Virus genome (UHGV): UHGV-1730466
Length of the DNA: 14,875 bases
Source: a virus
Direction: 5' to 3' (one strand)
The notes below the pieces were generated by a model. That model saw only the letters and a program-made list of their open reading frames with translations, searched no databases and was not told the DNA's origin. Shown here piece after piece: positions 6,539 to 8,436 of this stretch; position 1 is the stretch's first letter; each line of letters begins with the position of its first letter. A program made the position numbers and the translations under genes.

Positions 6539-8436
6539 TCTTCGCCATATTTAGCGTGCGCAACCTTATAGTTTTCTTGCGCCCGATCTAATATTCGTTT
6601 GTTTAATATATTACCGTCTTCATCAACTAATACGGTAATCGTGCTACATTTGCAGTTGCTCGCAATTAATCCATTTGCTATCATTAAACCTGATAACTCC
6701 TGGAGATCATAAACATGACCAGAATAATAGCTAACAACAATGTCGATGACTTCATCAAAGAATACCTGTCCGGCACGAGTATCGATAATATCGCCTTGAT
6801 GTTTAACACAACCACGGTAGACGTTATCACTTCTATGAAAAGCGCCGGATTCAAGTCCATCTCTAACGCAGATAAAGCTATTGAAAAATATTTTACCGTT
6901 GACGAACTCTATGCCAGACACGTCGCCGGGGAAAGCATCCAATCCATAAGTAAACGCATCGGCTTTAGTAGGATTGCCATTTGCCGCTTGTTTGATAAGC
7001 ACGGCCTCCACTACAGAACTCGACAGGAAGGAGCGCTTGAACGGTACAAAAATCTCTCTGCGGACGAAAGACGGGCTGTTACTGAACCAGCTTTCACCAC
7101 AAGAAGAGGAAGCCGTGATAGCGCTGCTGTTATAGCCAAAAGAGCAAAACACAGGCGCTTTGATCGAGTTGGCATGTTTGAGCGCGAGATTATCGAGAGT
7201 CTCATTGCACATGGCATCTGGTGTGAAAACCAGTTCCCCATCGGCGGTTACAACATCGATATTTTTATCCATTCCCCCGCCGTCGCCGTGGAAATCTACA
7301 GCACTCACCCTTGCAGAGATAGACTTGCCGATATCAGAGAGAGAACTAAAAACATCCTCAATAGCGGGGTCAATCAATTGACGATCCAGATTAGTTACCC
7401 GCATCGTGTTTTTGATCTTACCGCTGTAAGCAACGGCATAATCTCCTTTGTTGACTTCTGCCGCCGGAATCAATCCGCGATTGGTCATAATGGGGTGATT
7501 AGGGGTAACGGTGAGATTCCTGCCACTTCTAGTCATTATCTTGATGACTTCCCCGCTGTAATGCGCTTTTGAACCAGCTAAAAACCTGCCGTGTACAACC
7601 GTTCCCGGCAGGTAACAGTTAATTGAATTAGGGGATCTGCTCCACCATTCGCGCTGCTCTTCTATGGTGTACGTTTTCCCGTGTCGCTGTGCGTGTGACA
7701 GCCTGGTAGTCGGTGACAATGCCGAAATATGCATCTGCATCGTGCGCAAATTAAGCTCATCCGATGCGGCCTCTGCCTCATCCATACGCGCTGTGCGTAA
7801 CGCTGTGCATATTTCAGTACGGGCAATACGTTTGCACCTGTATAGCGGCAATTGCGTTTCCTGCTGCAATGTACGCGCTATTTCGAGTGGGTTTAAGCCG
7901 CGGGCCATGCCTTCAGTTAATCGGCGGGCCATATCCTTCTTGATCTGTGCGGTAAGCCCGCGCATCTCTTCAAATACACGGGTACGGACCAGGGCAAGGC
8001 GTGTGCGATAGGTCTGACTGGTTAATACCGCCGACACTTCAGGGTAAGCCCTGGAATATGTGACTGACTGGTTAGCGAGGTTGGCATATTCCTGTGAAGT
8101 GCCTCGCTGATATGCCACCTTTACGTATTCCTGCCAGAACCAGAAGTTTTCCGGGTCTGTTAACTCGAATATTTCATCAATCATGTCGCTGGCGTCTTCC
8201 AGCAAATCATGTAATTCGTCGATGTAGATCTGGAAGGTGTATTTTTTATTAACAGCCAGGGTGTATTGTATTCTGTCCAGTATGGCGATATACGGATCCG
8301 CAACTTTCTTCAGGCAGGCTTTAAAACGCTTGATAGCACCAGACCTTAACTTCCCTGTCATGGTCGGGTCTTCGGTGTTAGATGGCATTATCGCGGCTGG
8401 AGGTATTCGCCTGATTATCTTCTTCACCCTCATCAT
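6529..8436 (-). CDS. Mu F-like (SPP1 gp7 family) minor head protein interrupted by an in-frame intein; 635-aa precursor, about 314 aa after predicted splicing
   Basis: N-extein ends ...TTRLSHAQRHGKTYTIEEQREWWSRSPNSIN and C-extein begins CKCSTITV, which together rebuild the Mu F-family D.R.R..H...GK ... PNC(R/K)C signature; the likely start is the second ATG (8433), 6 nt after AGGAGG. Confidence 0.75.
   Translation of the reverse strand: MMRVKKIIRRIPPAAIMPSNTEDPTMTGKLRSGAIKRFKACLKKVADPYIAILDRIQYTLAVNKKYTFQIYIDELHDLLEDASDMIDEIFELTDPENFWFWQEYVKVAYQRGTSQEYANLANQSVTYSRAYPEVSAVLTSQTYRTRLALVRTRVFEEMRGLTAQIKKDMARRLTEGMARGLNPLEIARTLQQETQLPLYRCKRIARTEICTALRTARMDEAEAASDELNLRTMQMHISALSPTTRLSHAQRHGKTYTIEEQREWWSRSPNSINCYLPGTVVHGRFLAGSKAHYSGEVIKIMTRSGRNLTVTPNHPIMTNRGLIPAAEVNKGDYAVAYSGKIKNTMRVTNLDRQLIDPAIEDVFSSLSDIGKSISARVSAVDFHGDGGGMDKNIDVVTADGELVFTPDAMCNETLDNLALKHANSIKAPVFCSFGYNSSAITASSSCGESWFSNSPSFVRREIFVPFKRSFLSSSVVEAVLIKQAANGNPTKADAFTYGLDAFPGDVSGIEFVNGKIFFNSFICVRDGLESGAFHRSDNVYRGCVKHQGDIIDTRAGQVFFDEVIDIVVSYYSGHVYDLQELSGLMIANGLIASNCKCSTITVLVDEDGNILNKRILDRAQENYKVAHAKYGEDWE
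6655..7617 (-). mobile_element. Intein, 321 aa, within the minor head protein gene
   Basis: Cys1 (codon 7617-7615) in CYLPGTVV (block A), LTVTPNHPIMT (block B, TxxH), HVYDLQELSG (block F), ANGLIASN (block G, terminal Asn at 6657-6655), +1 Cys; boundaries checked codon by codon. Confidence 0.7.
6715..7572 (+). CDS. Nested antisense ORF inside the intein: HTH plus DUF559/Vsr-like (PD-(D/E)xK) endonuclease candidate, 285 aa
   Basis: Two HTH-like segments (IDNIALMFNTTTVDVITSMKSAGF; ESIQSISKRIGFSRIAICRLFDKHGL); ENQFPIGGYNIDIFIHSPAVAVEIYSTHP aligns to the DUF559 core [29 protein letters not shown]; GGAG 8 nt before the ATG; possible promoter TTGCTC (6656-6661), 17-nt spacer, TATCAT (6679-6684). 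Confidence 0.5.
   Translation: MTRIIANNNVDDFIKEYLSGTSIDNIALMFNTTTVDVITSMKSAGFKSISNADKAIEKYFTVDELYARHVAGESIQSISKRIGFSRIAICRLFDKHGLHYRTRQEGALERYKNLSADERRAVTEPAFTTRRGSRDSAAVIAKRAKHRRFDRVGMFEREIIESLIAHGIWCENQFPIGGYNIDIFIHSPAVAVEIYSTHPCRDRLADIRERTKNILNSGVNQLTIQISYPHRVFDLTAVSNGIISFVDFCRRNQSAIGHNGVIRGNGEIPATSSHYLDDFPAVMRF

What the first reader, a model, noticed from the sequence alone, without database searches (positions are those of the whole stretch)
8378..8436. Portal C-terminal acidic tail coding sequence doubles as the ribosome-binding site for the overlapping minor head gene
The minor head gene's ATGs (8436 and 8433) lie inside the portal ORF. The portal codons for its acidic tail (EEEDDDEGEEDNQ) produce the GAGGAGG SD used by the overlapping start, giving a 50-60-nt out-of-frame overlap that suggests translational coupling.
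Basis: seen in the sequence. Interest (0 to 1): 0.2.

Follow-up and report, generated by a model that had tools for sequence, protein, structure and literature searches.

The report
Minor head gene starts inside portal gene
In this E. coli phage the gene after the portal gene starts 56-59 bases before the portal gene ends, using a ribosome-binding site spelled by the portal's acidic-tail codons; related phages show this start is real and conserved, but it is an ordinary kind of gene overlap.

Summary
On the minus strand the portal ORF (9769..8378) ends in ETEEEDDDEGEEDNQANTSSRDNAI*. Its codons contain GAGGAGG (8446..8440) and two ATGs (8436, 8433) in the +1 frame, which run into the Mu F-like minor head gene, giving a 59/56-nt overlap.

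In one sequence the pattern means little. Synonymous resampling of the same portal tail recreates ATG + SD + open frame in 58% of trials. The comparative evidence decides it.

- Start codons in 57 close relatives: ATG 8433 is kept in 57/57, ATG 8436 in 42/57. The rival starts 8388 and 8361 are each lost once.
- Selection: within the overlap pN/pS is 0.17 in the minor-head frame and 0.97 in the portal frame.
- Distant homologues (30-55% identity) share the N-terminus 'basic run + PPILPxNxxDPT', which lies upstream of Met 8361.
- In 61 of 63 distinct distant junctions the start ATG lies inside the portal ORF (14-68 nt, median 47). An SD-like motif is present in 58 of 63.

The upstream start is therefore supported. 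Translational coupling is neither shown nor needed: there is no masking RNA structure, the start has its own strong SD, and the stop-to-start distance varies. This is a new, well-conserved example of a known kind, useful mainly for fixing inconsistent annotations.

Side finding: the minor head gene carries a rare 321-aa intein.

The parts
8378..9769 (-). Portal gene (longest ORF; some annotators start it 21 nt further in), stop TAA 8380-8378
   Evidence: Pfam Phage_portal_3 PF06381, E 1.7e-18, above cut-off. Annotated as portal in mEp021 and MagusPhagus.
8381..8455 (-). Codons of the portal C-terminal acidic tail ETEEEDDDEGEEDNQANTSSRDNAI
   Evidence: Translation. The last 17 codons evolve almost neutrally in the portal frame: pN/pS 0.97, 19 extra amino-acid states.
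8440..8446 (-). Shine-Dalgarno-like GAGGAGG, spelled by portal codons GAG GAG G(AC)
   Evidence: AGGAGG lies 6 nt from ATG 8433 and 3 nt from ATG 8436. The GAGG core is kept in all 37 haplotypes of close relatives.
8431..8433 (-). ATG, most likely start codon of the minor head gene (56-nt overlap)
   Evidence: Kept in 57/57 close relatives, although its T is a synonymous third position of a portal Asp/Asn codon. Optimal 6-nt spacing to AGGAGG.
8434..8436 (-). ATG, alternative start one codon upstream (59-nt overlap)
   Evidence: Kept in only 42/57 relatives (ACA, AAG, ATA or AGG in the others). 3-nt spacing to GGAGG, 6 nt to the GAGG core.
8362..8430 (-). Codons for minor-head N-terminal residues RVKKIIRRIPPAAIMPSNTEDPT. 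These lie upstream of Met 8361 and partly inside the portal ORF.
   Evidence: Purifying selection in this frame. Basic run + (A/P)ILPxNxxDPT shared by homologues down to about 30% identity.
8386..8388 (-). In-frame ATG (Met17) chosen by PGAP in several relatives; rival start with an 11-nt overlap
   Evidence: No SD-like motif upstream. ATT in one relative. The position is L/I/R/V in distant homologues.
8359..8361 (-). In-frame ATG (Met26) after the portal stop; rival start used in the mEp021 GenBank record
   Evidence: GCG in one relative. G/A/S in distant homologues. Only a weak GAAGA upstream.
8455..8457 (-). TAG that closes the minor-head frame upstream, limiting possible starts to 8454 and below
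6529..8433 (-). Minor head (Mu F / SPP1 gp7-like) gene including the intein
   Evidence: Pfam Phage_Mu_F PF04233, E 1.6e-11, above cut-off. The exact 634-aa product from ATG 8433 is in the public protein collection.
6655..7617 (-). 321-aa intein inside the minor head gene (side finding, not part of the overlap)
   Evidence: Pfam Intein_splicing and TIGR01445, both above cut-off. PDB intein hits. Precisely absent from orthologues at NSIN|CKC.

Best explanation
The portal gene and the Mu F-like minor head gene lie on one late transcript. Ribosomes start the minor head protein de novo at ATG 8433 (possibly also 8436), 56-59 nt before the portal stop. They are guided by the SD GAGGAGG, which is spelled by the Glu/Asp codons of the portal's acidic tail. 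The overlapped DNA is read in two frames. In the portal frame it gives a weakly constrained, probably disordered acidic tail end. In the +1 frame it gives the conserved basic N-terminus MRVKKIIRRIPPAAIMPSNTEDPT of the minor head protein, and this second frame is the one under selection.

Shown: the overlap, the conservation of the start, and the selection in the minor-head frame.

Inferred: that the SD is the site actually used, and that initiation does not depend on portal translation.
For: Sequence anatomy.

Close relatives, 57 sequences and 37 haplotypes:
- ATG 8433 is kept in 57/57, ATG 8436 in 42/57, ATG 8388 in 56/57 and ATG 8361 in 56/57.
- In the overlap 8433-8383, variable sites by minor-head codon position are 3/4/11. 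pN/pS is 0.17 in the minor-head frame and 0.97 in the portal frame.
- Stretch 8379-8362 has 5 variable sites, all third positions, and no amino-acid change.
- Upstream of 8458 the pattern switches to the portal frame (pN/pS 0.18).

Distant homologues:
- Proteins of Providencia, Enterobacter and Vibrio at about 50% identity align through the extension. D23, P24 and T25 are nearly invariant.
- In 63 distinct junctions from Enterobacterales, Burkholderiales, Pseudomonas and Halomonadaceae plus IMG/VR, the ATG lies inside the portal ORF in 61, with overlaps of 14-68 nt. An SD-like 4-6-mer lies 3-11 nt upstream in 58. The frame relation is the same in 61 of 62.
- In L035, L036, L038, L039, L041, L042 and L048 this is the only in-frame ATG upstream of the conserved motif.
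- Over the same nucleotides, mean pairwise amino-acid identity is 51% in the minor-head frame and 32% in the portal frame.

No promoter or terminator motif lies between the genes. AGGAGG-N6-ATG occurs only here in the window.
Against: No direct evidence of the protein's N-terminus exists. The mEp021 virion mass-spectrometry study gives no N-terminal information, and its genome record uses the downstream Met.

The ATG + SD + open-frame pattern arises in 58% of synonymous resamplings of the tail, so the motif alone proves nothing.

The close relatives are phylogenetically related and the overlap is short: 51 nt with 18 variable sites. AlphaFold gives the first 26 residues as coil with only moderate confidence, so structure adds no support.
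Confidence: 0.82

Rival explanations
1. Strict translational coupling: minor head translation depends on ribosomes translating the portal tail. They would either unfold a structure that hides the SD, or terminate at 8378 and re-initiate upstream.
For: The genes are co-directional and overlapping, with no promoter or terminator motif between them. The arrangement is conserved across the family. The two proteins are expected to be partners in the procapsid; this rests on knowledge of SPP1 gp6/gp7 and was not tested here.
Against: The RNA around the start folds no better than shuffles (z +0.78; 151 of 200 shuffles fold at least as well). The start has its own strong SD. The stop-to-start distance varies from 14 to 68 nt and changes without altering the minor-head N-terminus (L120, L131). 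Re-initiation 56 nt backwards is expected to be inefficient (general knowledge).
Confidence: 0.2
2. The protein, or a second shorter isoform, starts at ATG 8388 (ATGCCATCTAA, 11-nt overlap) by termination-reinitiation. PGAP annotates this start in several E. coli prophages.
For: PGAP uses this start in L004, L005, L006, L010 and L016. The ATG is kept in 56/57 relatives and lies next to the portal stop.
Against: There is no SD-like motif upstream. The 15 codons upstream of it are under purifying selection in this frame. The position is Leu/Ile/Arg/Val in distant homologues, whose conserved sequence continues upstream. One close relative has ATT.
Confidence: 0.1
3. The gene starts at Met 8361 after the portal stop, and the upstream open frame is an accident of the acidic tail. 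The mEp021 curators and some PGAP records use this start.
For: Annotated this way in mEp021, L007 and L013. Acidic tails generate ATG + SD by chance in 58% of resamplings. Long co-directional overlaps are usually start-codon mispredictions (Palleja et al. 2008, PMC2478687).
Against: ATG 8361 is GCG in one relative and Gly/Ala/Ser in distant homologues. The DPT motif immediately upstream is nearly invariant across the family. All five variable sites between the portal stop and 8361 are synonymous third positions in this frame. No SD lies upstream.
Confidence: 0.04
4. A programmed +1 frameshift in the overlap makes a portal-minor head fusion protein.
For: The minor-head frame is +1 to the portal frame and an SD-like element lies just upstream, as in prfB (general knowledge).
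Against: No slippery, rare or stop codon context is seen or conserved in the alignments. In many relatives a stop closes the minor-head frame 3 codons before the ATG. A conserved ATG with an SD explains the data without frameshifting.
Confidence: 0.02

Closest known systems
holD/rimI overlap of Enterobacteria (Palleja, Harrington and Bork 2008, PMC2478687)
   Same: A conserved co-directional overlap of tens of bases (32-56 bp), accepted as real because both protein ends are conserved among orthologues. The same argument is used here.
   Different: That pair consists of cellular genes, and both frames were described as conserved. Here the pair is a phage structural module: only the downstream gene's frame shows clear constraint, the overlap reaches 65-68 nt in some relatives, and the SD and ATG are products of an acidic tail.
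Short overlaps at operon junctions (ATGA, TAATG; 1-4 nt) with an SD inside the upstream gene, the classic setting of translational coupling
   Same: The SD of the downstream gene lies within the coding sequence of the upstream gene on one mRNA.
   Different: This overlap is more than ten times longer and the stop lies far downstream of the start. Termination-reinitiation is therefore unlikely, and dependence on upstream translation is not shown.
SPP1 gene 6 (portal) - gene 7 (minor head protein gp7) module; Mu H-F module
   Same: Same gene order, and the downstream protein belongs to the same family (Pfam Phage_Mu_F).
   Different: The portal here belongs to another family (Phage_portal_3/DUF1073). 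Whether the SPP1 or Mu genes overlap was not examined. TIGR01641 (SPP1 gp7) scores below its cut-off.
Overprinted phage genes (for example lambda Rz/Rz1, phiX174 nested genes)
   Same: One DNA stretch is read in two frames, and one of the products is a low-complexity or disordered segment.
   Different: Only the ends of two otherwise separate genes overlap here. No new gene is created.

Membership tests
Same-strand overlapping gene pair with internal SD | Both ORFs are real genes | tested here: met
   Phage_portal_3 and Phage_Mu_F hits are both above Pfam cut-offs. Both are conserved in over 100 loci.
Same-strand overlapping gene pair with internal SD | The downstream start codon lies inside the upstream ORF and is conserved among orthologues | tested here: met
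   ATG 8433 is kept in 57/57 close relatives. The ATG lies inside the portal ORF in 61 of 63 distant junctions.
Same-strand overlapping gene pair with internal SD | The overlapped stretch is under coding constraint in the downstream frame | tested here: met
   pN/pS is 0.17 against 0.97, and variable sites by codon position are 3/4/11. Amino-acid identity over the same nucleotides is 51% against 32% in distant loci.
Same-strand overlapping gene pair with internal SD | SD-like sequence 3-11 nt upstream of the start | tested here: met
   AGGAGG lies 6 nt from ATG 8433. SD-like motifs are present in 58 of 63 distant junctions.
Translationally coupled gene pair | Translation of the downstream gene depends on translation of the upstream gene | not testable with these tools
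   Needs a nonsense mutation and reporter experiment.
Translationally coupled gene pair | The downstream initiation site is masked by RNA structure, or the stop lies within a few nt of the start | tested here: not met
   Fold z-score is +0.78. The stop lies 56 nt downstream of the start, and 14-68 nt in relatives.
Phage Mu F / SPP1 gp7 minor head protein | Match to the family profile above the curated threshold | tested here: met
   PF04233 scores 45.3 bits against a cut-off of 29.6. TIGR01641 scores only 28.1 against 39.65.
Phage portal protein (Phage_portal_3 / DUF1073) | Match to the family profile above threshold, and position after the large terminase gene | tested here: met
   PF06381 scores 66.9 bits against a cut-off of 33.8. 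The gene follows the terminase gene 9827..11314.
Intein (side finding) | Cys at position 1, TxxH block B, C-terminal Asn followed by Cys, and profile hits above threshold | tested here: met
   The sequence shows CYLPGT..., TPNH and ...IASN|CKC. PF14890 scores 37.5 against 35.8 and TIGR01445 scores 28.2 against 24.5. The penultimate residue is Ser, not His.
Intein (side finding) | Precise presence/absence polymorphism at a conserved host-protein site | tested here: met
   Orthologues read NSINCKC without interruption. Inteins sit at the same site in Vibrio and Pseudomonas phage MuF genes.
Intein (side finding) | Protein splicing activity | not testable with these tools
   Needs expression and a gel or mass-spectrometry assay.
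Programmed ribosomal frameshift site | Conserved slippery or shifty codon context in the overlap | tested here: not met
   None is seen in the alignments. A frame-closing stop lies just before the ATG in many relatives.

The most novel reading that the evidence does not exclude
The overlap may be more than a compact junction. The same DNA encodes, in two frames, an acidic portal tail end (EEDE-type) and a basic minor-head N-terminus (KKxK-type). These could be each other's binding partners when the Mu F-like protein docks on the portal. The overlap would then genetically lock a charge-complementary interaction pair and keep the two genes from being separated by recombination. The evidence does not exclude this. 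It does lean against the portal half being selected: there are charge-reversing E to K changes in the portal frame, and the portal stops early in L120 and L131.
Probability: 0.07. Interest if true: 0.5.

Novelty: new member of a known kind. Interest (0 to 1): 0.22.

Why it matters
The practical value is for annotation. For this one gene, four different starts are in public records: products of 635, 634, 619 and 610 aa in the intein-bearing cluster, and the same spread among PGAP, PHANOTATE and manual annotations. The comparative result picks one start, and it shows that the mEp021 and Pseudomonas phage BR313c records cut off a conserved N-terminal segment.

It also adds a well-supported case of a long (47-68 nt) conserved co-directional overlap. 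A 338-genome survey found no real case of 60 bp or more (PMC2478687). The case also shows how an acidic tail supplies both SD and ATG for the next gene. None of this changes current understanding of translation or phage assembly.

Tried and rejected
- RNA folding of 8500..8370 to look for an SD-masking hairpin found nothing significant.
- The mEpimmI/mEp021 proteomics paper and its supplements hold no N-terminal or peptide-level data for this protein.
- Literature searches for portal / minor head / translational coupling, and for intein + MuF, returned nothing relevant.
- An AlphaFold model of an intein-less relative shows the N-terminal 26 residues as coil at moderate or low confidence, so it is uninformative for the start question.
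- NCBIfam gives no family for the portal, so the origin of PGAP's 'anti-CBASS Acb1 family' name could not be traced.
- The frameshift-fusion idea was considered and dropped for lack of any conserved shifty site.
- A Pfam search of the intein's middle part for a homing endonuclease found none.

Full report
**What is there.** The genes of this stretch lie on the minus strand.

- Order: Sf6-type small terminase, an HNH ORF, large terminase (9827..11314), portal (8378..9769; Pfam Phage_portal_3), a Mu F-like minor head gene (longest ORF 6529..8436), then scaffold-, decoration- and capsid-like genes.
- The portal ends ...ETEEEDDDEGEEDNQANTSSRDNAI*, with TAA at 8380-8378.
- One base downstream of the portal frame, the same DNA reads TAG(8457) K R K R R T M M R V K K I I R R I P P A A I M P S N T E D P T M T G K...
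- ATGs lie at 8436, 8433, 8388 and 8361. GAGGAGG at 8446..8440 sits 3 or 6 nt upstream of the first two ATGs.
- The overlap is 59 nt from ATG 8436 or 56 nt from ATG 8433.

**Is it more than chance?** Not in one sequence.

- GAGGAGG occurs once in the window against 0.75 expected.
- AGGAGG-N6-ATG occurs once against 0.10 expected.
- When the portal tail's amino acids are kept and synonymous codons are redrawn from the phage's own usage, 58% of 20,000 trials give an in-frame ATG at least 60 nt upstream of 8361, with an open frame and an SD-like 4-mer.

Asp-Glu runs (GAT GAR) read one base later give ATG, AAG and AGG. An acidic tail therefore makes start-like signals by itself. Annotators accordingly disagree.

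- The mEp021 curators start the gene at the 8361 equivalent.
- PHANOTATE-based records use the overlap start.
- PGAP uses the 8388, 8361 or 8433/8436 equivalents in different E. coli prophages.
- The exact protein of this window exists in public collections in versions of 635, 634, 619 and 610 aa.

**Close relatives.** The window belongs to the mEpimmI group of E. coli temperate phages: mEp021, mEp044 and MagusPhagus, 35 complete E. coli genomes, and 39 IMG/VR contigs. I aligned 57 junctions, which give 37 haplotypes.

| Candidate start | Kept in |
|---|---|
| ATG 8433 | 57/57 |
| ATG 8436 | 42/57 |
| ATG 8388 | 56/57 (one ATT) |
| ATG 8361 | 56/57 (one GCG, Met to Ala) |

The T of ATG 8433 is the synonymous third base of a portal Asp codon. 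Where that residue changes, it becomes Asn (AAT), which still preserves the ATG.

The substitution pattern switches frame at the ATG.

| Stretch | Result |
|---|---|
| 8530-8459, upstream of the overlap | portal frame constrained: pN/pS 0.18; variable sites by portal codon position 6/3/23 |
| 8433-8383, overlap | minor-head frame pN/pS 0.17, variable sites by its codon positions 3/4/11; portal frame pN/pS 0.97 |
| 8379-8362, portal stop to ATG 8361 | 5 variable sites, all minor-head third positions, no amino-acid change |
| 8361-8293, undisputed minor-head coding | pN/pS 0.10 |

At the protein level the minor-head peptide changes only conservatively: R/K swaps, A/S, V/I, plus one K to N. The portal tail shows G/S/C/D, E/K, A/E/K, S/R/L/V and similar changes.

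**Distant relatives.**

- Homologues at about 50% identity from Providencia, Moellerella, Enterobacter and Vibrio align through the extension. They share a short basic run followed by (A/P)I(L/M)PxNxxDPT. D23, P24 and T25 of the window ORF are nearly invariant, and all lie upstream of Met26 (8361). Met17 (8388) is Leu, Ile, Arg or Val elsewhere.
- I then looked at the DNA of 37 loci from one-genome-per-species contigs (Enterobacterales, Burkholderiales, Pseudomonas, Halomonadaceae and one Blastopirellula MAG) and 41 IMG/VR loci.
- Among 63 distinct junctions, the minor-head ATG lies inside the portal ORF in 61. The overlap is 14-68 nt with a median of 47.
- The frame relation is the same in 61 of 62. 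An SD-like 4-6-mer lies 3-11 nt upstream in 58 of 63.
- The SD is typically spelled by the portal's (P)LGE(E/D)D codons, for example TTA GGA GAA GAG GAT G.
- In seven loci this ATG is the only in-frame ATG upstream of the conserved motif, because a stop closes the frame three codons earlier.
- Over the same nucleotides, mean pairwise amino-acid identity is 51% in the minor-head frame and 32% in the portal frame.
- In L120 and L131 the portal stops 27-33 nt earlier while the minor-head N-terminus is unchanged. The distal portal tail is therefore dispensable.
- Exceptions: L050 has a GTG start with a 1-nt overlap and no basic run. In L033 my filter found no portal ORF.

**Mechanism.**

- Best supported (confidence 0.82): the two genes are co-transcribed, since there is no promoter or terminator motif between them. 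The minor head protein is initiated de novo at ATG 8433 and/or 8436 on the SD formed by portal tail codons. The overlapped DNA is selected for the minor-head reading. The portal reading is a tolerated, near-neutral tail end.
- Which of the two adjacent ATGs is used cannot be resolved. 8433 is the conserved one and has the better spacing.
The RNA folds no better than shuffles (z +0.78), the start has its own strong SD, and the stop-start distance is long and variable. Coupling is not excluded.
- Elongating ribosomes crossing the start site could equally reduce initiation, setting a sub-stoichiometric level of the minor protein. This is inference only.

**Comparison with known cases.**

- SDs inside upstream genes and short overlaps are routine.
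- Long co-directional overlaps are rare. A survey of 338 genomes found no genuine case of 60 bp or more and named holD/rimI (32-56 bp) as the longest real one (PMC2478687).
- This phage module is a further, well-conserved case at or slightly above that length.
- I found no paper describing it. Several GenBank records already annotate the overlap start.
- It is therefore a new member of a known kind, with low to moderate interest.

**Side findings.**

- The 635-aa length of the minor head ORF is due to a 321-aa intein (6655..7617). It is inserted exactly before the Cys of the invariant NSIN|CKC motif.
- The intein is absent from all 39 close IMG/VR relatives, the seven phage genomes and 5,426 complete E. 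coli genomes. It occurs in a 17-member cluster that includes E. coli draft genomes.
- Homologous inteins sit at the same site in Mu F genes of Vibrio phage vB_VaM_H2 and Pseudomonas phages.
- Two HNH_3 ORFs are also present.

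Noticed in passing
window 6655..7617 (-): The minor head gene carries a 321-aa intein (CYLPGT...TPNH...LIASN|CKC) inserted exactly at the invariant NSIN|CKC motif. It explains why the ORF is 635 aa rather than about 314 aa. It is absent from 39 close IMG/VR relatives, 7 related phages and all 5,426 complete E. coli genomes, but present in a 17-member protein cluster that includes E. coli draft genomes. Homologous inteins (27-47% identity) occur in head-morphogenesis/MuF genes of Vibrio, Cronobacter, Pseudomonas, Salmonella and Gordonia phages; the identical insertion site was confirmed for Vibrio phage vB_VaM_H2 and Pseudomonas phage BR313c. No homing-endonuclease domain is recognisable in its middle. 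The penultimate residue is Ser instead of His.
   Followed up: partly
window 11298..11801 (-) and 14138..14644 (-): There are two HNH_3 endonuclease ORFs. One lies between the Sf6-type small terminase (11814..12314) and the large terminase. The other (HNH_3 + AP2) lies between an endolysin fragment (14634..14861) and Rz (13664..14134). Neither stretch is matched by megablast in the mEp relatives, where small and large terminase genes abut. They are possibly inserted homing endonucleases.
   Followed up: partly
window 8378..9769 (-); L004-L017: RefSeq/PGAP names the orthologues of this DUF1073/Phage_portal_3 portal protein 'anti-CBASS protein Acb1 family protein'. The gene's position after the large terminase and its Pfam hit indicate a portal, and NCBIfam gives no hit for it. 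The product name is probably misleading.
   Followed up: partly
L138 (Pseudomonas phage vB_Pae_BR313c, MK511015.1) 583..790; L001 (mEp021) 2499..2574: The deposited minor-head CDSs start at a downstream Met. The upstream frame, inside the portal ORF, encodes the family's conserved N-terminus (MKMPRAPILPASSSDPTG in BR313c). These are probably start-codon misannotations.
   Followed up: partly
window 8362..8395 (-): The 42 nt CGCGATAATGCCATCTAACACCGAAGACCCGACCATGACAGG around the portal stop are almost invariant in relatives that differ by 15-20% elsewhere. Dual coding explains the first part, but the strength of conservation after the stop, including most third positions, is not fully explained.
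   Followed up: no
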